From: Campylobacterota bacterium
Lineage (GTDB): Bacteria; Campylobacterota; Campylobacteria; Campylobacterales; Sulfurovaceae
Direction of reading: 5' to 3'
NCBI GenBank assembly: GCA_034722955.1
Contig: JAYEOM010000084.1
Coordinates: 1-12,082 of the forward strand
Length of the DNA stretch: 12,082 nucleotides
Shown here: positions 2,278-12,082 of the stretch, one piece after another
Layout of the letters: each line of letters begins with the position of its first letter
Numbering within the stretch: the first letter of the stretch is position 1
Notes under the pieces: generated by a model
Database searches by the model: none
What the model was told of the DNA's origin: nothing
What the model saw: the letters and a program-made list of their open reading frames with translations, nothing else
Made by a program: the position numbers and the translations under genes

Positions 2278-3723
2278 ATGCATAAAATACTCTTTGCATC
2301 TTTTCTTATATTTGCTCTTACAGCAGGAGTGATAGCTAACTCTTATGGACTGCTGATAGGTATCGATAGATACAAGAGTGCTACTCGTCTGGGTGGAGCT
2401 GTAGCAGATGCTGTAGAGTTGGAAAAACTTCTCAAAAGACATGGTATCCATAATACAGTTGTGCTTCTTGATAATAATGCAACCAAACAGGCTATTGTTA
2501 CAGCACTCAAGTCTATAGCATACAACATAAAGAGAGGTGATCTTTTCTATATGTTTTTTAGCGGACATGGCACCAGCTTGGAGGACAAAGGTTTTCAATC
2601 TATTGTTGACAGAGAGAGCAGATTGCTTACACTTTTAGAGAATTCTGGTGCACTGCTGCCTTATGATTTTGATAAAAACAGTGCCAGTCGCTCTCTGCTT
2701 ATAGGGAGTCGAGATCTGAGACCTCTTTTTGAAAAGATAGATGCTAAAGGGGCTCTCTCTCTAGTGGTGTTTGATGCTTGCTTCTCTGGTATGTCCTACC
2801 GTAGTCTGCCGAGTAAACGCAAAAGAAGACGGCACTATACTATGCCTACATATGATATAAGTTTTAATGTTAAAAAGTCACACCCATACAAGAGTCTCGT
2901 ATATGTAGCATCAACATCTGCTTCAGATTGGGCAGTTGAAGATACAAAGACCCATCGTGGTTATCTTATGCAGCAGCTTGAATATTGCTTGAATGGTACT
3001 GCCGATAGCAATGGTGACAAACGCATCTTAAAGCAAGAGCTTAAACACTGTATCGACAACTCAGATCTTCCGCAATCTCCTCAAGTTTATCCTGATGATC
3101 TAAAGGTGAATCCACAGGTTTTTAAAGTCTATACGCCCACAGGAAAAAATAGTCCAAAACAAGATACAGGGGTTAGTTTGAGTAGCTCTCTTGGTGGCGG
3201 AGGCTATATAGTTCAAGATCAATATGGCAAGATCGCCTCTTTTTCACGAGAAGAGCAGTTGCGTCGCTATAGAGAGGCTTATAAGATCATGCAGTTAAAA
3301 GGTCAAAAGCAGTTCTCCCTTCAGGCTATCAATCAAAAAGGGGTCAATCAGAAGATGTATACGGTTGGGGATGAGATAGATATCACTGTTCAAAGTTCAC
3401 GAGAGGGGTATTTGGTTCTTTTTGACCTTGATGCCGAGGGAAATCTTTTTATGATAGAGCCATATCCAGATAAGTTTACCAATATTTCAAAAAATAAAAA
3501 GATTAACTATACGGATTTGACTATTGCTGAACCTGTAGGTGTAGAGATAATGAAGGGGTTTATCGTCTCTGATCTGAAGGTTATCGAAAAGATACAACAA
3601 CTCTCACCCAATAATGATACAGGTCTGATCGATGACCCTACAGCTATCTATCAGCTTCTCAGCACTCTTCCAAAGCAGAGTTATGATAGTGCCTTGCTTA
3701 AACTAACTACATATAAAAAGTAG
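2278..3723 (+). CDS. Exported caspase-family (peptidase C14, ortho/metacaspase-like) protease with C-terminal DUF4384-like domain
   Basis: Signal peptide MHKILFASFLIFALTAGVIA; GLLIGIDRY, L.GAVADA and AT...I motifs; catalytic dyad FSGHG (H97) and FDACFSG (C168); ADSNGDKRILKQEL motif; C-terminal YTVGDEIDITVQSSREGYLVLFDLDAEG...EPVGVE resembles DUF4384. Confidence 0.88.
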   Translation: MHKILFASFLIFALTAGVIANSYGLLIGIDRYKSATRLGGAVADAVELEKLLKRHGIHNTVVLLDNNATKQAIVTALKSIAYNIKRGDLFYMFFSGHGTSLEDKGFQSIVDRESRLLTLLENSGALLPYDFDKNSASRSLLIGSRDLRPLFEKIDAKGALSLVVFDACFSGMSYRSLPSKRKRRRHYTMPTYDISFNVKKSHPYKSLVYVASTSASDWAVEDTKTHRGYLMQQLEYCLNGTADSNGDKRILKQELKHCIDNSDLPQSPQVYPDDLKVNPQVFKVYTPTGKNSPKQDTGVSLSSSLGGGGYIVQDQYGKIASFSREEQLRRYREAYKIMQLKGQKQFSLQAINQKGVNQKMYTVGDEIDITVQSSREGYLVLFDLDAEGNLFMIEPYPDKFTNISKNKKINYTDLTIAEPVGVEIMKGFIVSDLKVIEKIQQLSPNNDTGLIDDPTAIYQLLSTLPKQSYDSALLKLTTYKK

Positions 3724-3737
3724 TACCAAACAAAGGG

Positions 3738-3764
3738 AAAAAAGTGTACCTCAAGAGAGGCACA
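3738..3764 (-). terminator. Rho-independent terminator of the sqr + small ORF transcript
   Basis: Minus strand TGTGCCTC-TCTT-GAGGTACA (8-bp stem, one G-U) followed by CTTTTTT, beginning 6 nt after the small ORF stop. Confidence 0.7.
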
Positions 3765-3770
3765 AGAGTT

Positions 3771-3938
3771 TTAGTGGTGACTCTTTAGTATAAGAATAGT
3801 CATTCTGATATTGATAGCGACAAATCTGACAATTTGCCAAAGAACACAAGTTCTTAAGAATTTCTGTCCGCCCATTGGGATCATTGTCCCAAATTGTGGG
3901 CTGTATGGTTCGATATGATTTACATGTTTTGATGCCAT
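3771..3938 (-). CDS. 55-aa small protein downstream of sqr (unknown function; probably membrane-associated)
   Basis: Hand translation: MASKHVNHIEPYSPQFGTMIPMGGQKFLRTCVLWQIVRFVAINIRMTILILKSHH*. AGGAGA SD 5 nt before the ATG; fits between the sqr stop and the terminator. Shorter than any ORF in the supplied track. Confidence 0.8.
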   Translation of the reverse strand: MASKHVNHIEPYSPQFGTMIPMGGQKFLRTCVLWQIVRFVAINIRMTILILKSHH

Positions 3939-3964
3939 TGCATTCTCCTAATATTATATTTTGA

Positions 3965-3987
3965 TAAGTGAGGATAACCCTCACCTA
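3965..3987 (-). other. Intercistronic stem-loop between sqr and the small ORF
   Basis: Minus strand TAGGTGAGG-GTTAT-CCTCACTTA (9 bp, one G-U), with no U-tract after it. Confidence 0.55.
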
Positions 3988-3995
3988 AGTTATCT

Positions 3996-5465
3996 CTACT
4001 CTGGTATTAGAGTCCAGCCTGGCTTGAGCTTGGCTTTCCATATAAAGACATGGTGAAGGATATGCTTTACCCAGTGTGCAGCAAGACCTAACTCACCGGT
4101 TGTTCCATTGAGATCCCTACCGGTACCAGGGTACTTTTCAAAATCCTGGACGATGGGATAGACAGTCATAGCAGCAGCAGTACCACTCAAGAGACCTTTG
4201 CCGGCAGAAGCTACACATGCAGCACCCATCTCAGCCATACAGGCAGTGTGTGTAGGTTCGGTTGCTCCATTTTGCATCATATCAACAACACTCTTGGCAA
4301 CAGCTTTACCCATCATAGCAGATGGCATACCTGTTCTAGGTGGCGTAGGGTTGATAGGAGTACCATTTGGTGAACTCATAGGCTTTGAGATTGTATGTGG
4401 TGGTGCAAAAGCGATACCAACAGCAAATACATTCTTGTATGCAGGAGTCTGAAGCGTTCGAGGCCAGTCAGATGCCTTCCAGTTCTCATAAGCACCAGCA
4501 GCGTAGTTTGCATCAACTTTCATAAAGCCATTTGGAGCAAATACATCACTAGTAATATCAGAGCCATCTTTAGCAAAAGCTTGTAGACCTACACCAGCAA
4601 ATGGTGGGATAAGCATAGCAAAGTCAAACTCTTGAGTATCCATCTCACCATCAAGTGATTCATAAGTTACCTTGCCCTCTTCTACCTTGTTGACATGCGC
4701 CCCAAGGATCCAATCCATACCTCTCTCAGCATAGAGAGACTCAGCAAAGATTTTACTCGAAGTTGCGTAACCACCCATCTTGAAGTGGATACCACCCATA
4801 CCAAAGTCACCCAAGAATGATTCATTGGTGATAAAGATGATCTCTGCCATATCTCTCACACCAGCCTCTTTTAGTGTATGTTCGATGTTGAAGATATACT
4901 CAAATGCAGCACCCTGACAAGTACACATACCGTGACCTGTACCTATAAGGAATATCTGCTTTTCGCCATTTTTCATCTTTTCGATGCAGTTTTGAAGCTC
5001 TACATTGGCATGGAGTGCATGATCTGCTGTACAGACAGAGACTGTGTGTTGACCTAGCTCTGTACCTTCACCAAGCCCCGGTGTAGCTCCAAAGTTTAGT
5101 TTTGGTCCAGTTGCATTGATAAGATAGTCATAGGTGAGCTCTTCACTCTCACCAGTTTTGTCGTCACCTGTATATTCAATGACGATATAAGGTGTATCTG
5201 AATCTGTTTTACCCTCTGGGTGAATAGCGGTCGCCTTGGCTTGTCTGTAGTCAATGCCTGCTTTTTCATATACAGGAGCAAGCGGAAAGACAACATCATC
5301 TCTGCCCATGCCTCCTACACCTACCCAGATATTGGATGGAATCCAGTTCCACATACTGTTTGGTGTGACAACAACCACTTCGTGATCTTTGCCAAGCATA
5401 TCTCTTGCAAATGTTGCTGCTGTGTGTCCTGATACGCCGCCACCCATTACTACTAATCGTGCCAT
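3996..5465 (-). CDS. sqr: Sulfide:quinone oxidoreductase, type IV (SqrD)-like, 489 aa
   Basis: Start reassigned to ATG 5465 (AAAGGA SD). FAD-binding MARLVVMGGGVSG, WIPSNIWVGVG, NATGPKL, SVCT, TCQGAAFEY, PPRTGMPS, GAACVASAG and the C-terminal amphipathic helix ending W.LIPE all resemble my recollection of Chlorobium SqrD. Confidence 0.92.
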   Translation of the reverse strand: MARLVVMGGGVSGHTAATFARDMLGKDHEVVVVTPNSMWNWIPSNIWVGVGGMGRDDVVFPLAPVYEKAGIDYRQAKATAIHPEGKTDSDTPYIVIEYTGDDKTGESEELTYDYLINATGPKLNFGATPGLGEGTELGQHTVSVCTADHALHANVELQNCIEKMKNGEKQIFLIGTGHGMCTCQGAAFEYIFNIEHTLKEAGVRDMAEIIFITNESFLGDFGMGGIHFKMGGYATSSKIFAESLYAERGMDWILGAHVNKVEEGKVTYESLDGEMDTQEFDFAMLIPPFAGVGLQAFAKDGSDITSDVFAPNGFMKVDANYAAGAYENWKASDWPRTLQTPAYKNVFAVGIAFAPPHTISKPMSSPNGTPINPTPPRTGMPSAMMGKAVAKSVVDMMQNGATEPTHTACMAEMGAACVASAGKGLLSGTAAAMTVYPIVQDFEKYPGTGRDLNGTTGELGLAAHWVKHILHHVFIWKAKLKPGWTLIPE

Positions 5466-5644
5466 AGCAATCCTTTTAAAATCAATTTTTTTATTAAACA
5501 TAATATTTTAGGGGATTCTTGATTAAACTAAAATTAAATTTTGTAAATTTGTAATATTAATTATACTGTATTATTTAAATAATAAAATAGAATTATACAA
5601 ATATCAAATTTGTGGTCAAGCAGCTCTTTTTTTAGGACAAATTA

Positions 5645-7894: not shown

Positions 7895-7932
7895 TACAAT
7901 AAACAGAACACTATATTTTGATAGGAGATAAA

Positions 7933-8496
7933 ATGGTAGAAATAAGATGGCACAGCCGTGCTGGTCAGGGTGCTGTATCTGGTGCAAAAGGTCTAGGAGA
8001 TGTTGTTGCAACCACTGGGAAGGAGGTTCAAGCTTTTGCACTTTATGGTTCAGCAAAAAGAGGGGCTGCGCTGAGAGCCTATAATAGAATTGCTGATGAA
8101 CAGATTTATAATCATGCAAAATTTATGCATCCTGACTTTGTTTTGGTAATTGATCCGGCATTGGCATTTTCAGATAGTATTACTGAAAATGAAGATGAAA
8201 ATACAAAGTATATTATTACCACTCACCTCACTAAAGAGGAGCTGATTGAAGGCATTCCGGAGCTTGAAGGTAAAGAGGATAGAGTTTTTGTTCTTGACTG
8301 TGTGCAGATATCTCTGGATACTATCGGAAGATCAATGCCAAATTCACCTATGCTTGGTGCTTTTGTTAAGATGTCAGGTATGTTTGAGCTTGATTATTTC
8401 CTTGAAAATATGAAAAGAGTACTCAGCAAGTTTCCACCAAAAATTATTGATGCTAATATGGATGCGATTACCAGAGCATATAATGAAGTAAAGTAG
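7933..8496 (+). CDS. porC: Pyruvate:ferredoxin/flavodoxin oxidoreductase gamma subunit
   Basis: Start reassigned to ATG 7933 (AGGAGA SD). EIRWHSRAGQGAV, YGSAKRGA, PDFVLVIDP, PNSPMLGA. Also called porG. Confidence 0.95.
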   Translation: MVEIRWHSRAGQGAVSGAKGLGDVVATTGKEVQAFALYGSAKRGAALRAYNRIADEQIYNHAKFMHPDFVLVIDPALAFSDSITENEDENTKYIITTHLTKEELIEGIPELEGKEDRVFVLDCVQISLDTIGRSMPNSPMLGAFVKMSGMFELDYFLENMKRVLSKFPPKIIDANMDAITRAYNEVK

Positions 8497-8506
8497 AGGA
8501 GTTAAG

Positions 8507-8965
8507 ATGCAAGATTTAAACTTATTGGCAAATGATAACAGAGGACAGAGTGAGCTGGAAAACGGTAGTGGACTTGTCGGTTGGGATGAAGTTACACAAG
8601 GAAGTATTCTACCTTCATTTGTCGGTGATGCGACAGAGATAGTATATCAAAAATCAGAAGAGAGAGTATACTCTAACTACAACACTTATACAGCTACAGT
8701 AGCATCATGGCGTGTAGAGAAGCCAATATTTAATATAGATGTATGTATTGATTGTCAAAACTGTTGGGTATGGTGTCCTGATACATCTATCCTCTCAAGA
8801 GATAAACAGATGCTAGGTATCGACTATGATCACTGTAAAGGGTGTGGTGTTTGTGCAGAGGTTTGTCCTACAAATCCAAAATCACTTATAATGTTCAATG
8901 AGCATGCAGTGTTGGATGAAGCGATTGCTAGTTGGCCAGAGAAAAAGAAAAAAGAAGAGAAGTAA
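8507..8965 (+). CDS. porD: Pyruvate:ferredoxin/flavodoxin oxidoreductase delta subunit (2x[4Fe-4S])
   Basis: SWRVEKP, CIDCQNCWVWCPD and DYDHCKGCGVCAEVCP; GAGGAG SD. Confidence 0.95.
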   Translation: MQDLNLLANDNRGQSELENGSGLVGWDEVTQGSILPSFVGDATEIVYQKSEERVYSNYNTYTATVASWRVEKPIFNIDVCIDCQNCWVWCPDTSILSRDKQMLGIDYDHCKGCGVCAEVCPTNPKSLIMFNEHAVLDEAIASWPEKKKKEEK

Positions 8966-8974
8966 GGAACTGTA

Positions 8975-10210
8975 ATGGCAGAAAAATATGATTTACAAGA
9001 GAGAGAAGTTTGGGATGGCAACTTTGCTTCTTCTCAGGCACTAAGACAAGCACAGGTTGATGTTGTTGCTGCGTATCCTATTACGCCCTCAACACCTATC
9101 GTTGAAAACTATGGTTCATATGTTGCGAACGGATATATAGATGGTGAGTTCGTTATGGTTGAGTCTGAGCATGCTGCTATGTCAGGATGTATCGGTGCTT
9201 CTGCTGCAGGCGGGCGTGTATCTACTGCAACATCTTCACAAGGTTTTGCATTGATGGCAGAGGTACTCTACCAAGCATCTGGTATGAGGCTTCCTATCGT
9301 ACTAAATGTAGTAAATAGAGCTCTTGCTTCTCCGCTCAATGTTCGTGGTGACCATGCCGATATGTATCTAGGGCGTGACTCTGGCTGGATTCAGTTTGGT
9401 GCATTTAATGCACAAGAGGCATACGATCTTGCACTTTGTGCATTTAAGGTTGGTGAAAACCACTCTGTAAGACTTCCGGTAATGGTACACCAAGATGGTT
9501 TCATAACTTCACACACTGCACAAAATGTCTATCCATTGACAGATGAAGCAGCATACAATTTTTTAGGTGACTTTAAACCTGTAGATGATATGTTGGATTT
9601 CTCTCGTCCTGTAACTTATGGTGCACAGACTGAAGAGGATTGGCATTTTGAGCATAAGGCAAAACAACATAAAGCACTAATGGATTCTCGCCCAGTTATC
9701 GATGAGGTATTTGCTGAATTTGAAAAGCTCACAGGCAGAGAGTACAAGAGAGTAGAGTCTTACAATATGGAAGATGCCGATGTAGCTATCGTAGCACTTG
9801 GAACAACAGTTGAGACTGCTAGAGTAGCAGCTGAACAAATCAGAGAAGAGACAGGTGTCAAAGCCGGTGTTGTAGCTATCAGATGCTTCAGACCATTCCC
9901 TTATGATGAGGTTAGAAATGCTTTGGAAAATACAAAATGTATTGCTGTGACAGATCGTTCAAGTCCTGGTGGAGCTATGGGCGCATTCTACAATGAAGTA
10001 TCCGCAGCACTCTACACAACACCATCTAGACCGCTTGTAACAAACTTCATTTATGGACTCGGTGGGCGTGATTTCTCTATCGATGAAGCAAAAAGAATCT
10101 TCACTGAACAGCAGGCACATGCAGATGCTGGTCATATTACAACAGATATCCAACAGTTCTCTGGACTCAGAGGTCCATACCTTGGATACTTTCAAACAAA
10201 AAGAGGTTAA
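8975..10210 (+). CDS. porA: Pyruvate:ferredoxin/flavodoxin oxidoreductase alpha subunit
   Basis: AAYPITPST, VESEHAAMS, TATSSQG, NRAL, RPFP and YGLGGRD motifs. Confidence 0.97.
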   Translation: MAEKYDLQEREVWDGNFASSQALRQAQVDVVAAYPITPSTPIVENYGSYVANGYIDGEFVMVESEHAAMSGCIGASAAGGRVSTATSSQGFALMAEVLYQASGMRLPIVLNVVNRALASPLNVRGDHADMYLGRDSGWIQFGAFNAQEAYDLALCAFKVGENHSVRLPVMVHQDGFITSHTAQNVYPLTDEAAYNFLGDFKPVDDMLDFSRPVTYGAQTEEDWHFEHKAKQHKALMDSRPVIDEVFAEFEKLTGREYKRVESYNMEDADVAIVALGTTVETARVAAEQIREETGVKAGVVAIRCFRPFPYDEVRNALENTKCIAVTDRSSPGGAMGAFYNEVSAALYTTPSRPLVTNFIYGLGGRDFSIDEAKRIFTEQQAHADAGHITTDIQQFSGLRGPYLGYFQTKRG

Positions 10211-10212
10211 AA

Positions 10213-11166
10213 ATGGCAATTACTTCAATAAAAAACTTAAAAGAGTTTTCAACAAATAACGACAGATTTGAGGGTGCACATACTCTCTGTCCCGGTTGTG
10301 CTCACTCTATGATCGTTAGAGAGCTTATGAACTGTACAGATGACAACCTTGTGATTTCATCAAACACTGGTTGTCTAGAGGTATCTACAGCAGTATATCC
10401 ATTTACTTCATGGGATACATCTTGGATCCATATCGGTTTTGAAAATGCAGCTACAGCAGTAACTGGTGCAGAGTCTATGCACAAAGCTAGAAAGAGAAAA
10501 GGGACACTTAAAGACAATGATGCTCCTGTAAAATTCGTTGCTTTTGGTGGTGACGGTTCTACATTTGATATCGGTTTCCAGTGGCTAAGCGGAGCGATGG
10601 AGAGAGGTCATGACTTTACATATATCTGTCTAGACAATGAGAACTATGCAAATACAGGTGGACAGAGATCATCTGCAACACCTATTGGTTCTACAACTTC
10701 AACTGCTCAAGCAGGTACACACAGTTATGGTAAAAAAGAGCAGAAGAAAGATATAGTCTCTATTATGGCGGCTCATGGTGCTCCTTATGTTGCACAGTTA
10801 GCTCCAAACAAATGGAAATCTATGGCGAAAGGTTTTCAAAAAGCACTAGAGACTGAGGGACCATGCTTTATCAATACAGTCTCTCCATGTACAACAGAGT
10901 GGAGATTTGATCCGAAAGATACTATTGCTATTACTGACTTGGCGACAGATTCATTGATGTTCCCAATATATGAGATTATTGATGCTCATGAGCTCAATAT
11001 CCTCTATAGACCTAAAAATATCATTTCAGCTGAAGATTATCTTGGTGCTCAAGGACGATATAAACATCTATTTAAGCCTGAGTATAGACATATTATCGAA
11101 GAGATTCAAAAAGGTATCGACTCAAATTGGGATATGCTACAGCGTCGCGAAGAGGCTCGTATCTAA
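10213..11166 (+). CDS. porB: Pyruvate:ferredoxin/flavodoxin oxidoreductase beta subunit (TPP-binding)
   Basis: LCPGCAH, TGCLEV, GGDG...DNENYANTGGQRS TPP-binding motif, and SPC. Confidence 0.97.
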   Translation: MAITSIKNLKEFSTNNDRFEGAHTLCPGCAHSMIVRELMNCTDDNLVISSNTGCLEVSTAVYPFTSWDTSWIHIGFENAATAVTGAESMHKARKRKGTLKDNDAPVKFVAFGGDGSTFDIGFQWLSGAMERGHDFTYICLDNENYANTGGQRSSATPIGSTTSTAQAGTHSYGKKEQKKDIVSIMAAHGAPYVAQLAPNKWKSMAKGFQKALETEGPCFINTVSPCTTEWRFDPKDTIAITDLATDSLMFPIYEIIDAHELNILYRPKNIISAEDYLGAQGRYKHLFKPEYRHIIEEIQKGIDSNWDMLQRREEARI

Positions 11167-11206: not shown

Positions 11207-11423
11207 TTACTTCTATCACTTACCTAATCTGCCTTAAGTTATCTAAAGCTAAGATAAAAATAAGTACAATTTTTTTGGTGATGTAAATGATTGGGCGAGA
11301 TACTCATATTCTATTACTTAAAACTAGAGTCAAGAGCCAAAGGATCATAGAGGTGCTAAATAGTTAATATCGCCAGTGAGGCTATATATAGCAAAATATC
11401 AATCAAAAATATAAAGGAAAAAA

Positions 11424-11900
11424 ATGAAGAGTATAATTTTATCAACAGCAGTTATCGCAACTTTGGGAGTTGCAACATTTGCTATGGCAGAGTCAGTAGC
11501 ACATGCAGAGAAGAGAGTTGCAAAAGAGACAATAAAGACAGAAAAAGCTGCAGTGGAAGAGGTAATCACTGTAGGCAAAAGTGTAAATAAAGCAGAGAAG
11601 AATATGGATAAGGCTATCGCAAAAGAGGCGAATAAGCTCGACAAACTCATCGATAAAGATATAGCTAAAGAGGAGAAAGCTGAAGCAAAGGCTGATAAGA
11701 AAGTGGATAAACTCACCGATAAAAATATAGCTAAAGAGGAGAAAGCTGAAGCAAAGGCTATGAAGAGATTAGAAAAAAAGGCTGAAAAAGAGGCTAAAAA
11801 GATAGAGAAGCAGGCAGTAAAGGCAGCAAAAAAGACAGATAAGGCTGCTGCAAAGCTAGATAAAGCTGTAGAGAAAGAGTTGAAAGCTTCTGTAAAATAG
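11424..11900 (+). CDS. Exported low-complexity Lys/Ala/Glu-rich helical repeat protein, unknown function
   Basis: AAAGGA SD; signal peptide MKSIILSTAVIATLGVATFAMA; the mature part is K/A/E/D-rich with 11-residue periodicity. Confidence 0.85.
   Translation: MKSIILSTAVIATLGVATFAMAESVAHAEKRVAKETIKTEKAAVEEVITVGKSVNKAEKNMDKAIAKEANKLDKLIDKDIAKEEKAEAKADKKVDKLTDKNIAKEEKAEAKAMKRLEKKAEKEAKKIEKQAVKAAKKTDKAAAKLDKAVEKELKASVK
11643..11759 (+). repeat. In-frame tandem duplication, 66-nt period
   Basis: 11643-11693 and 11709-11759 are 51-nt copies with 2 mismatches (KL[I/T]DK[D/N]IAKEEKAEAKA). Confidence 0.9.
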
Positions 11901-11930
11901 ATACACCCTGGAGAGGATATAGGTAAGATA

Positions 11931-12082
11931 ATGGAACTCATAAACGAAGTACTTGAAATAGACACTTTCCTGACTGTCACGCTTGGTATTATTGTACTCT
12001 TTGTTGGCAAACGCGTCAATGAATCTTTTGGGTTTCTCCAAGAGTATAGTATTCCTGAACCAGTTACTGGTGGTTTGATCTT
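11931..12082 (+). CDS. gltS: Sodium/glutamate symporter, 5' part only
   Basis: Not in the ORF track. Hand translation MELINEVLEIDTFLTVTLGIIVLFVGKRVNESFGFLQEYSIPEPVTGGLI carries the GltS N-terminal IPEPVxGGL motif. Confidence 0.88.
   Translation, partial: MELINEVLEIDTFLTVTLGIIVLFVGKRVNESFGFLQEYSIPEPVTGGLI

What the first reader, a model, noticed from the sequence alone, without database searches (positions are those of the whole stretch)
3738..5465. Hidden 55-aa protein apparently co-transcribed with type IV SQR: candidate accessory subunit of sulfide oxidation
Seen: an ORF at 3938-3771 (-) starts 57 nt after the sqr stop, has an AGGAGA SD, and is followed directly by a U-tailed terminator. 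The hairpin between sqr and this ORF has no U-tract, so the layout reads as a two-gene operon. The C-terminal half (KFLRTCVLWQIVRFVAINIRMTILILKSHH) is a basic/hydrophobic helix with one Cys and a terminal His-His. Established: characterised SQRs are single-gene monotopic membrane flavoproteins. Inference: this peptide may be an overlooked membrane anchor, quinone-site partner, persulfide carrier or assembly factor for SqrD-type enzymes. I recall similar RT..WQ..RF..IN..M....SH hypothetical peptides next to sqr genes elsewhere, but have not verified this.
Basis: partly seen in the sequence, partly recalled or inferred. Interest (0 to 1): 0.8.

Follow-up and report, generated by a model that had tools for sequence, protein, structure and literature searches.

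The report
Conserved small partner protein of SQR
A 55-residue protein encoded right behind a sulfide:quinone reductase gene is real, strongly conserved and always travels with this enzyme type across many bacterial phyla, so this "single-subunit" enzyme probably has an unrecognised second subunit.

Summary
ORF 3938-3771(-) lies 57 nt after the sqr stop, has an AGGAGA ribosome site and ends at a U-tailed terminator.

It is a real gene under purifying selection (dN/dS 0.017 against the closest relative). It founds a wide, unnamed family: 231 clusters in a profile search, with no Pfam, NCBIfam or PDB match.

The same SQR type lies directly upstream on the same strand in 30 of 30 Campylobacterota loci. 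The same holds in 79 of 80 loci from Acidobacteriota, Actinomycetota, Planctomycetota, Myxococcota and others.

Presence and absence match in three genome samples. In GC-rich phyla the genes are 2-5 nt apart or overlap by 4 nt.

A complex model supports binding: score 0.69 against best control 0.01. The conserved face of the peptide helix sits on the SQR C-terminal quinone and membrane domain.

Cys31 and the His-His end are not family-wide, so a persulfide-carrier role is unlikely. No experiment, RNA or proteome data were available.

An earlier scan note on another genome described the third gene of this cluster, a deformylase-like protein.

The parts
5592..5619 (-). promoter-like site upstream of sqr (TTGACC, 16 nt, TATAAT)
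   Evidence: Consensus scan, 11 of 12 matches. A consensus match only: 8 such sites were found in the region against 5.9 expected from shuffles.
3996..5501 (-). sulfide:quinone reductase gene. The longest ORF is 501 aa. The likely true start is the ATG at 5465 (489 aa).
   Evidence: Pyr_redox_2 match. Best PDB sequence matches are type I SQRs 3HYV (3.3e-41) and 3SZ0 (2.7e-33). The AF2 model has pLDDT 90 and aligns to type I SQRs at Z 42-43, rmsd about 2 A, about 400 residues. Cys157, Cys195 and Cys429 are invariant in 87 homologues. By the alignment they match the three cysteines of the Aquifex enzyme. The invariant C-terminus is W496...I499-P500-E501.
3965..3987 (-). intergenic hairpin between sqr and the small gene (9 bp, 5-nt loop, no U-tract)
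   Evidence: Fold -12.2 kcal/mol, z -1.37. Hairpin-like GC-rich inverted repeats with different sequences occur at the same place in the closest relatives L002-L006, L011 and L015, by eye. They are absent where the gap is 16-31 nt.
3944..3949 (-). Shine-Dalgarno AGGAGA, 5 nt before the ATG
   Evidence: Sequence. An AGGAG/AAGGA-like site sits before the start in the 30 related loci.
3771..3938 (-). gene for the 55-aa SQR-associated small protein. Residues 1-22 are extended. A kinked helix covers 23-30 and 32-54.
   Evidence: Homologues in 30 of 30 loci with an intact frame. Profile search: 231 clusters at E<=1e-3. dN/dS 0.017-0.15 for close pairs. AF2 secondary structure. Invariant in 87 sequences: P21, R29, Q35, F39, N43, M46.
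3735..3764 (-). intrinsic terminator closing the two-gene unit (8-bp stem, 4-nt loop, T6)
   Evidence: Terminator scan. Fold -12.3 kcal/mol, z -5.6, 0 of 200 shuffles as stable. It is followed by the end of the convergent gene 2278-3723(+).

Best explanation
The small gene encodes a second subunit of this (type IV-like) sulfide:quinone reductase.

Shown:
- The two genes form one unit, bounded in this window by a promoter-like site and a terminator.
- This unit is the only part of the neighbourhood kept across phyla.
- The peptide is under purifying selection.
- Its occurrence tracks this SQR clade and no other SQR paralogue.

Inferred from a model:
- The peptide's N-terminal 22 residues lie extended on the enzyme.
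- Its kinked helix (23-54) packs with one conserved face (Q35, R38, F39, I42, N43, M46, I50, S53, H54) against the SQR C-terminal domain. The contacts are the strand around the third redox cysteine (424-428, next to C429), strand 440-447, the start of the single C-terminal helix (470-478, including invariant H476 and W477) and the invariant C-terminal P500-E501.
- The opposite, variable hydrophobic face and a stripe of basic residues (R38, K/R45, K52) would face lipid.

In type I SQRs the residues flanking the corresponding cysteine, together with the first C-terminal helix, wall the quinone channel. I therefore infer that the peptide adds a helix in trans to the membrane-docking and quinone-entry site. 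It would stabilise membrane attachment and shape quinone access.

Not shown: stoichiometry, and any effect on activity.
For: Synteny:
- The SQR orthologue is directly upstream on the same strand in 30 of 30 Campylobacterota loci.
- The same holds in 79 of 80 loci from other phyla. The one miss (L098) has the match 24 nt from a contig end.

Co-occurrence:
- Order-level relatives (61 genomes): SQR in 48, with the peptide adjacent in 47. G033 is cut by a contig end. G043 was seen only with a focused HMM search (2e-5). In G012 the peptide sits at a contig end. The remaining 12 genomes have neither.
- Acidobacteriota sample (121 genomes): the same 5 genomes hold both. They are adjacent in 4, and in G168 both lie at contig ends.
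- Actinomycetota class sample (151 genomes): 7 genomes carry this SQR clade, and all 7 have the small ORF downstream. None of the 25 genomes with only weaker SQR-like hits has it.
- Own genome: two distant paralogues and no second peptide.

Coupling: in GC-rich phyla the gap is 2-5 nt or a 4-nt overlap in most loci. The SQR's last codons (..CCGGAG, stop) supply a GGAG site.

Selection: L001 against L002 gives dN 0.011, dS 0.667, ratio 0.017. The median ratio is 0.22 over the 158 of 435 pairs with unsaturated dS.

Complex model:
- Score 0.69 (runs 0.69, 0.66, 0.72); best of 3 controls 0.01.
- That mark was reached by 116 of 157 solved complexes and 2 of 215 mismatched pairs. These counts hold only roughly, because my own alignments were used.
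- The runs agree in at least 82% of contacts; partner pLDDT is at least 69.
- No similar solved complex exists by sequence (0 PDB hits), so a pass from memory is unlikely.
- The interface uses the invariant residues of both proteins.

Quinone site in type I SQR: Ile346, Ile348 and Phe385 flank the conserved Cys and lie on the first C-terminal helix (PMC9666304, passages read). A428-C429-V430 here align to I346-C347-I348.
Against: - No experimental datum. No RNA run was available, and no proteomics or co-purification exists.
- The complex score is a model's confidence, obtained with my own alignments, and the partner pLDDT is only about 70.
- In this window the genes are 57 nt apart with a hairpin between them, so translational coupling does not apply here and some termination is possible.
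- The type IV SQR of Sulfurimonas denitrificans was expressed heterologously. I saw only the title of Han & Perner 2016 in reference lists; the paper is not held. If the sqr ORF alone gave activity, the peptide is not strictly required.
- The AF2 model of SQR alone is already confident (pLDDT 90).
- I could not obtain model coordinates, so the placement relative to FAD and quinone rests on residue lists and on alignment to 3HYV.
- Whether the reference type IV enzymes of green and purple sulfur bacteria carry the peptide was not testable.
Confidence: 0.7

Rival explanations
1. The peptide is a transient assembly, membrane-insertion or stability factor. It helps the flavoprotein fold, acquire FAD or dock to the membrane, and is not part of the working enzyme.
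For: The same synteny, co-occurrence and tight gene spacing would be expected for a dedicated helper. The AF2 model of SQR alone is confident without it.
Against: The predicted interface is large (91-104 contacts, 75-78 of them confident). It uses invariant residues on the mature enzyme's membrane face and its free C-terminus, which looks like a stable interface. A 38-90 aa single helix has no feature of a known chaperone or flavinylation factor, and no family matches.
Confidence: 0.15
2. The peptide is a sulfur (persulfide or polysulfide) acceptor or relay that uses Cys31, perhaps with the terminal histidines.
For: Cys31 is invariant in the 30 Campylobacterota sequences. The K-S-H end is nearly invariant (S53 0.91, H54 0.90 of 87).
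Against: Across the family Cys31 is mostly Phe (0.69 of 87 rows) or N, S or L. A 38-aa version in a divergent subclade lacks both Cys and the SH end. Cys31 is not among the confident interface residues, and the sulfide-oxidising site is not at the predicted interface. The second His is present in only 0.34 of rows.
Confidence: 0.04
3. The peptide is a small membrane protein with its own job, for example modulating another respiratory complex or a transporter. It merely shares the sqr transcript.
For: Downstream genes vary by phylum and include cytochrome bd subunit I, TauE, OsmC, DUF302 and rhodanese-thioredoxin. A role toward a variable partner cannot be excluded.
Against: The only invariant neighbour is the SQR. 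No genome in the three samples has the peptide without this SQR clade, apart from contig-end cases. The complex model scores 0.00 when the SQR is replaced by an unrelated protein.
Confidence: 0.08
4. The ORF is a chance reading frame or a non-coding 3' region of the sqr transcript.
For: It is short and has no Pfam or NCBIfam family.
Against: The frame is intact and SD-preceded in 30 of 30 loci. dN is far below dS. The amino-acid motif is conserved from 30%-GC to 70%-GC genomes. A profile search finds 231 clusters.
Confidence: 0.01

Closest known systems
Helical membrane plugin (HMP) proteins: YjlC with NDH-II, the scaffold subunit of the ForCE formate dehydrogenase, HucM with Huc hydrogenase (PMC13433803, passages read)
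   Same: - An accessory protein encoded next to a monotopic quinone reductase of the same flavoprotein superfamily.
- The paper states that most HMP genes lie adjacent to SQR genes.
- In YjlC/Ndh the enzyme docks through its C-terminal domain.
- The quinone is placed in a pocket formed by a C-terminal helix of the enzyme and a helix of the helper.
- The predicted interface here is likewise the SQR C-terminal domain.
   Different: - No detectable sequence relation. None of 87 members matches any relevant Pfam model at E<=10, and there are no PDB hits.
- DUF1641 (PF07849), which I recall to be the HMP domain, was not found in this genome. It does ring in Bacillus, Thermus, Haloferax and Sulfolobus controls.
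- Size is 38-90 aa with one kinked helix. The HMP alignment used in that paper has 132 sites and HMPs form tetrameric tubes.
- Different taxa. By the paper, HMP is enriched in Firmicutes and Crenarchaeota.
- Tube formation is not testable here.
Small single-helix subunits of respiratory enzymes, such as CydX of cytochrome bd oxidase
   Same: A protein under 60 aa, encoded at the end of the enzyme's operon, long overlooked, consisting of one hydrophobic helix that binds the large subunit.
   Different: CydX is a transmembrane helix that binds an integral membrane enzyme. Here the partner is a monotopic flavoprotein. The helix carries conserved Arg, Gln and Asn residues, and its best 19-residue hydropathy is only 1.66, so an in-plane or shallow position is as likely as a membrane span. 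There is no sequence relation.
The cis C-terminal amphipathic helices of type I SQR (Aquifex 3HYV/3HYW, Acidithiobacillus 3T31)
   Same: They bind the membrane and wall the quinone channel (PMC9666304). The peptide helix is predicted to sit on the equivalent surface.
   Different: In type I both helices belong to the enzyme chain. By the AF2 model the SQR here has a single C-terminal helix (473-490) followed by a short tail. Whether the peptide replaces the second helix could not be decided: the structural alignment gives only range ends (model 13-501 to chain 2-415).

Membership tests
HMP (helical membrane plugin) accessory proteins | Sequence match to the family profile (DUF1641 as I recall it) or to solved HMP chains | tested here: not met
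   0 of 87 family members match DUF1641 at E<=10. There are no PDB sequence hits with profiles A1 or A5 at E<=10 apart from designed repeat proteins and an apolipoprotein. That HMP equals DUF1641 is recalled, not taken from a call.
HMP (helical membrane plugin) accessory proteins | Multi-helix protein of roughly 130-200 aa that forms a tetrameric tube | tested here: not met
   Family lengths are 38-90 aa. The AF2 model shows one kinked helix, 23-30 and 32-54. Oligomerisation itself is not testable here.
HMP (helical membrane plugin) accessory proteins | Gene adjacent to, and co-oriented with, a quinone-reducing flavoprotein (SQR or NDH-II) | tested here: met
   30 of 30 and 79 of 80 loci.
HMP (helical membrane plugin) accessory proteins | Docks on the C-terminal domain of the flavoprotein | tested here: inconclusive
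   Predicted only: score 0.69 against best control 0.01, with the interface on SQR residues 424-448, 463-478 and 500-501. No structure or binding assay exists.
Type IV SQR (SqrD), for the large gene | SQR fold with an FAD-binding Rossmann domain | tested here: met
   Pyr_redox_2 match. Sequence matches to 3HYV and 3SZ0. Structural Z 42-43 to type I SQRs over about 400 residues.
Type IV SQR (SqrD), for the large gene | The three cysteines shared by types I and IV (FAD-linking and redox pair) | tested here: met
   C157, C195 and C429 are invariant in 87 sequences. They align to the three cysteines of the Aquifex enzyme. The review PMC4584964 (passages read) states that types I and IV share these cysteines, that Epsilonproteobacteria lack type I, and that type IV is kept in all Sulfurimonas.
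Type IV SQR (SqrD), for the large gene | Groups with the reference enzyme CT0117 of Chlorobaculum tepidum in a tree, apart from types I, II, III, V and VI | not testable with these tools
   No reference sequences of typed SQRs could be fetched by name.

The most novel reading that the evidence does not exclude
Type IV-like SQRs are obligate two-subunit enzymes. The small protein supplies, in trans, the helix that completes the quinone channel and membrane anchor. On this reading sqr expressed alone is mis-localised or kinetically crippled. Every kinetic, structural and ecological statement about 'SqrD' would then concern a heterodimer whose second gene has been ignored in genome annotation and pathway models across at least ten phyla.
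Probability: 0.4. Interest if true: 0.85.

Novelty: new variant of a known kind. Interest (0 to 1): 0.74.

Why it matters
SQR is the entry point of sulfide into respiratory and photosynthetic electron transport. It is treated in textbooks, pathway databases and metagenome surveys as a single-gene marker.

A second subunit that is strictly linked across phyla would change three things:
- how type IV enzymes should be cloned, purified and assayed
- the explanation for poor yields or odd kinetics of heterologous SqrD
- the structural target, which would become the heterocomplex, for the only major SQR type close to type I that has no structure

It also extends a very recent idea: that monotopic quinone reductases recruit helical helpers at their C-terminal domain. 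That idea would now reach a new, much smaller protein family and phyla where it was not described.

The family deserves a name and a profile so that annotation pipelines stop calling it 'hypothetical' or missing it.

Tried and rejected
- RNA evidence: the look-up of sequencing runs listed no RNA holder for 3700-5560.
- Fused forms: a 'longer' search found no fused forms; 6 candidates, none scored. This is weak evidence. An apparent 561-aa SQR-peptide fusion in G028 is an artefact of an N-run that shifts the frame.
- Protein atlas: it returned only unnamed 'hypothetical protein' clusters and no structure.
The narrower A3 worked.
- Notes of this scan: none near this place. A look-up by sequence gave one note on another genome.
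- Literature: eight searches found no paper describing a small protein with SQR. led to the HMP paper. Han & Perner 2016 is not held.
- The overlapping 77-aa ORF 3751-3984(-) has no family match. It is not the conserved frame.
- Second helix in trans: I could not decide this, because the structural search gives only range ends and the complex tool returns no coordinates.
- Intergenic hairpin as a regulated attenuator: not pursued. It is not more stable than shuffles and is absent in most lineages.
Full report
**1. What is in the window**

On the minus strand a promoter-like site (5619-5592, 11 of 12 consensus matches) precedes a 501-aa ORF (5501-3996). This ORF is a sulfide:quinone reductase.
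- It has a Pyr_redox_2 match.
- Its best solved relatives by sequence are the type I SQRs of Aquifex (3HYV, 3.3e-41) and Acidithiobacillus (2.7e-33).
- Its AF2 model (pLDDT 90.2) aligns to those structures at Z 42-43 over about 400 residues.
- The family profile starts at the ATG at 5465, so the real protein is probably 489 aa.

After the TAG stop come 57 nt holding a 9-bp hairpin without a U-tract (3987-3965; -12.2 kcal/mol, z -1.37). Next is AGGAGA (3949-3944) and, 5 nt later, the ATG of a 55-aa ORF (3938-3771). Six nucleotides after its stop stands a clean intrinsic terminator (3764-3735; z -5.6; 0 of 200 shuffles as stable). Then the end of a convergent gene follows.

**2. The small ORF is a gene**

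A six-frame search of 61 related genomes found it with an intact frame in all 36 other genomes of the same family and in many other families.
- In the 30 loci fetched, each copy has an SD-like site and a start at the equivalent place.
- The 30-sequence alignment has Y12, P21, R29, C31, Q35, F39, I42, N43, M46, K52, S53 and H54 invariant.
- Against the closest relative, dN is 0.011 and dS 0.667 (ratio 0.017). Over the 158 of 435 pairs whose dS is not saturated, the median ratio is 0.22.
- Gene callers already list it as 'hypothetical protein' in many records. It is unnamed rather than unseen.

**3. It is a large, unnamed family**

A profile of the 30 sequences, scored against 1.84 billion cluster representatives, found 231 clusters at E<=1e-3 and 44 at E<=1e-10. 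Nearly all are 40-90 aa. The shared core reads P-T..T.F.R-T-(F/C)..W-Q..R-F..I-N.(K/R)-M......(K/R)-S-H.

No family model or solved structure matches:
- the window protein
- 20 diverse members
- any of 87 members at E<=10
- PDB searches with two profiles gave nothing relevant

Records with names place members in these groups:
- Campylobacterota
- Acidobacteriota
- Actinomycetota (Thermoleophilia, Solirubrobacterales)
- Planctomycetota
- Myxococcota
- Gemmatimonadota
- Eisenbacteria
- Dormiibacterota
- Leptospira
- Bdellovibrionales

**4. It always travels with one SQR clade**

Ascertained by the peptide:
- The SQR orthologue (66-91% identical) is directly upstream on the same strand in 30 of 30 Campylobacterota loci.
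- The orthologue (56-64% identical) is directly upstream in 79 of 80 loci from the other phyla. The single miss has the peptide 24 nt from a contig end.

Ascertained by the SQR:
- In the 61 relatives, 48 genomes have the orthologue, and 47 of them have the peptide next to it. G043 was seen only with a focused HMM search (2e-5). In G033 the SQR ends 75 nt from a contig end. G012 has the peptide at a contig end. The remaining 12 genomes have neither.
- In an even sample of 121 Acidobacteriota, 5 genomes have the SQR and the same 5 have the peptide. They are adjacent in 4. In G168 both lie at contig ends.
- In 151 genomes of the class of a Solirubrobacteraceae record, 7 genomes carry this clade. 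One copy has in-frame stops. All 7 have the small ORF downstream: 6 at E<=1e-3 and G271 in a focused search.
- In that same sample, the 25 genomes whose only hits are weaker SQR-like proteins have none.
- The window's own genome has two distant paralogues and only one peptide.
- A divergent SQR subclade keeps a 38-aa version that retains Q..R-F..L-N.K.

These genomes are related to one another, so I give counts, not a probability.

**5. Only the pair is conserved**

Downstream genes differ by lineage.
- In 21 of the 28 Campylobacterota loci with enough DNA, a deformylase-like protein of about 273 aa follows (Pfam Pep_deformylase in the two checked).
- That gene is missing here. The only match in this 99.97%-complete genome is an ordinary 178-aa deformylase-sized frame elsewhere.
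- In other phyla the next gene is cytochrome bd subunit I, OsmC, sulfatase, TauE, DUF302, rhodanese-thioredoxin, a P-type ATPase and others.

**6. Gene spacing**

In the GC-rich phyla the small gene mostly starts 2-5 nt after the SQR stop or overlaps it by 4 nt. The invariant last codons of the SQR (Pro-Glu..CCGGAG) supply a GGAG before the start (C-terminal W496, I499, P500, E501 invariant). That layout is typical of translationally coupled subunits (an inference from general knowledge).

In Campylobacterota gaps are 16-151 nt, each with its own SD. The closest relatives of the window carry a hairpin of differing sequence in the gap (by eye).

**7. Predicted binding**

With 87-row alignments for both chains, the complex model scored 0.69 (runs 0.69, 0.66, 0.72). 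The three controls scored 0.01, 0.00 and 0.00.
- The tool's mark was reached by 116 of 157 solved complexes and 2 of 215 mismatched pairs. These counts hold only roughly with my own alignments.
- The runs agree in at least 82% of contacts, and the partner pLDDT is 69-71.
- The model supports binding; it does not show it.

The interface on the peptide is residues 15, 17-21 and 29-55. On the SQR it is 251-259, 392, 396, 424-428, 438-448, 463-478 and 500-501. The tightest pairs join peptide Q35, R38, F39, I42, N43 and M46 to SQR 473-478 (which includes H476 and W477), and I49 and K52 to 426-428 and 446-448.

These are the invariant residues of both families. On a helical wheel they form one face. 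A basic stripe (R38, K/R45, K52) and a variable hydrophobic face lie elsewhere. Alone, the peptide is predicted as a coil (1-22) plus a helix kinked at 31. Most family members have Pro at position 33.

**8. Mechanistic reading**

In type I SQRs the residues on both sides of the third conserved cysteine, plus a Phe on the first C-terminal helix, line the quinone head-group site. The C-terminal helices also bind the membrane (PMC9666304, passages read). By the 3HYV alignment, A428-C429-V430 here correspond to I346-C347-I348.

The AF2 model shows a single C-terminal helix, 473-490. The peptide is predicted to lie on exactly these elements. I therefore propose that it is a stable subunit that adds a helix to the membrane-docking and quinone-entry surface.

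The steps 'binds' and 'where' are model-based. The steps 'affects quinone access or anchoring' are inference. Whether it replaces the second amphipathic helix of type I could not be decided.

**9. What the evidence disfavours**
- A family-wide sulfur-carrier role. Cys31 is Phe in 0.69 of 87 rows, and the second His is present in 0.34. The 38-aa version lacks both. Cys31 is outside the confident interface. Its invariance within Campylobacterota may still mark a lineage-specific extra.
- A chance ORF.

**10. Comparison with what is known**

The nearest concept is the helical membrane plugin (HMP) family. A 2026 paper shows that YjlC forms a tube on which NDH-II docks by its C-terminal domain. 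It states that most HMP genes lie next to SQR genes (PMC13433803, passages read).

The present family behaves like a helper of that sort but fails the membership tests I could run:
- no profile or PDB similarity
- a third of the size, with one helix
- different taxa
- DUF1641 was not found in this genome, while it rings in Bacillus, Thermus, Haloferax and Sulfolobus controls. That DUF1641 is the HMP domain is my recollection.

Eight full-text searches found no description of a small protein partner of type IV SQR. Subscription papers and supplements were not covered.

**11. The 'type IV' label**

A review states three things (PMC4584964, passages read):
- types I and IV form one clade sharing the cysteines
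- Epsilonproteobacteria lack type I
- type IV is kept in all Sulfurimonas

This SQR has the type I cysteine pattern and is closest to type I structures. It was found in 35 of 36 other same-family genomes, and the 36th is cut by a contig end. The label fits, but no tree with CT0117 could be made.

**12. Verdict**

This is a real, widespread, unnamed small-protein family that is the constant companion of one SQR clade and is predicted to bind it. What remains open is experimental proof of binding, the effect on activity, and whether the classic SqrD enzymes of phototrophs have it.

Noticed in passing
window 3735-3770 and relatives L002-L030: In 21 of 28 related Campylobacterota loci with enough downstream DNA, a deformylase-like gene of about 273 aa follows the small gene on the same strand (Pfam Pep_deformylase in two checked). 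In this window it is replaced by a terminator. The only match in the whole genome is a 178-aa frame at 35% identity, likely the ordinary deformylase.
   Followed up: partly
window 2278-3723 (+): Convergent 481-aa protein with an N-terminal hydrophobic stretch, a caspase (Peptidase_C14) domain and DUF4384. It has a weak match to the NCBIfam EACC1-associated caspase model, below cut-off.
   Followed up: no
window 5465-5501 (-): The longest sqr ORF starts at 5501, but homologues and the family profile begin at the ATG at 5465 (MARLVV..), which is preceded by AAAGGA. The extra 12 codons are probably not translated.
   Followed up: partly
L031-L110 (for example L036:3960-3975, L039:3990-4001): The invariant SQR C-terminus Ile-Pro-Glu is encoded as ..CCGGAG followed by the stop. 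This GGAG sits 5-9 nt before the small gene's start in most GC-rich loci. One stretch therefore serves as both protein end and ribosome site.
   Followed up: partly
L122 (G271:C178) and L123 (G211:C3): A divergent SQR subclade (profile E about 1e-160) carries a 38-aa version of the small protein. It lacks the N-terminal arm, the R-T motif and the K-S-H end but keeps Q..R-F..L-N.K.
   Followed up: partly
G272:C9:408-2016: An SQR copy is broken by in-frame TGA codons and split into three matches, while the small ORF downstream is intact. This could be a pseudogene, a sequencing error or recoding.
   Followed up: no
L073 and L099: Two records titled Arcobacter sp. MAGs carry GC-rich loci whose small proteins look like the Bryobacterales/Acidobacteriota ones. 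The contigs may be mis-binned.
   Followed up: no
L117 (G028:C229:420-2105): An apparent 561-aa SQR-peptide fusion is produced by a run of N that shifts the frame near the SQR C-terminus. It is not a natural fusion.
   Followed up: yes
window 7918-11166 (+): Four consecutive ORFs (192, 152, 411 and 317 aa) look, from their translations, like the gamma, delta (two 4Fe-4S motifs), alpha and beta subunits of a 2-oxoacid:ferredoxin oxidoreductase. No family search was run.
   Followed up: no
window 11424-11900 (+): A 158-aa Lys/Ala/Glu-rich repetitive protein with an N-terminal signal-like stretch. The long ORFs on the opposite strand (11399-12082) are probably its mirror artefact.
   Followed up: no
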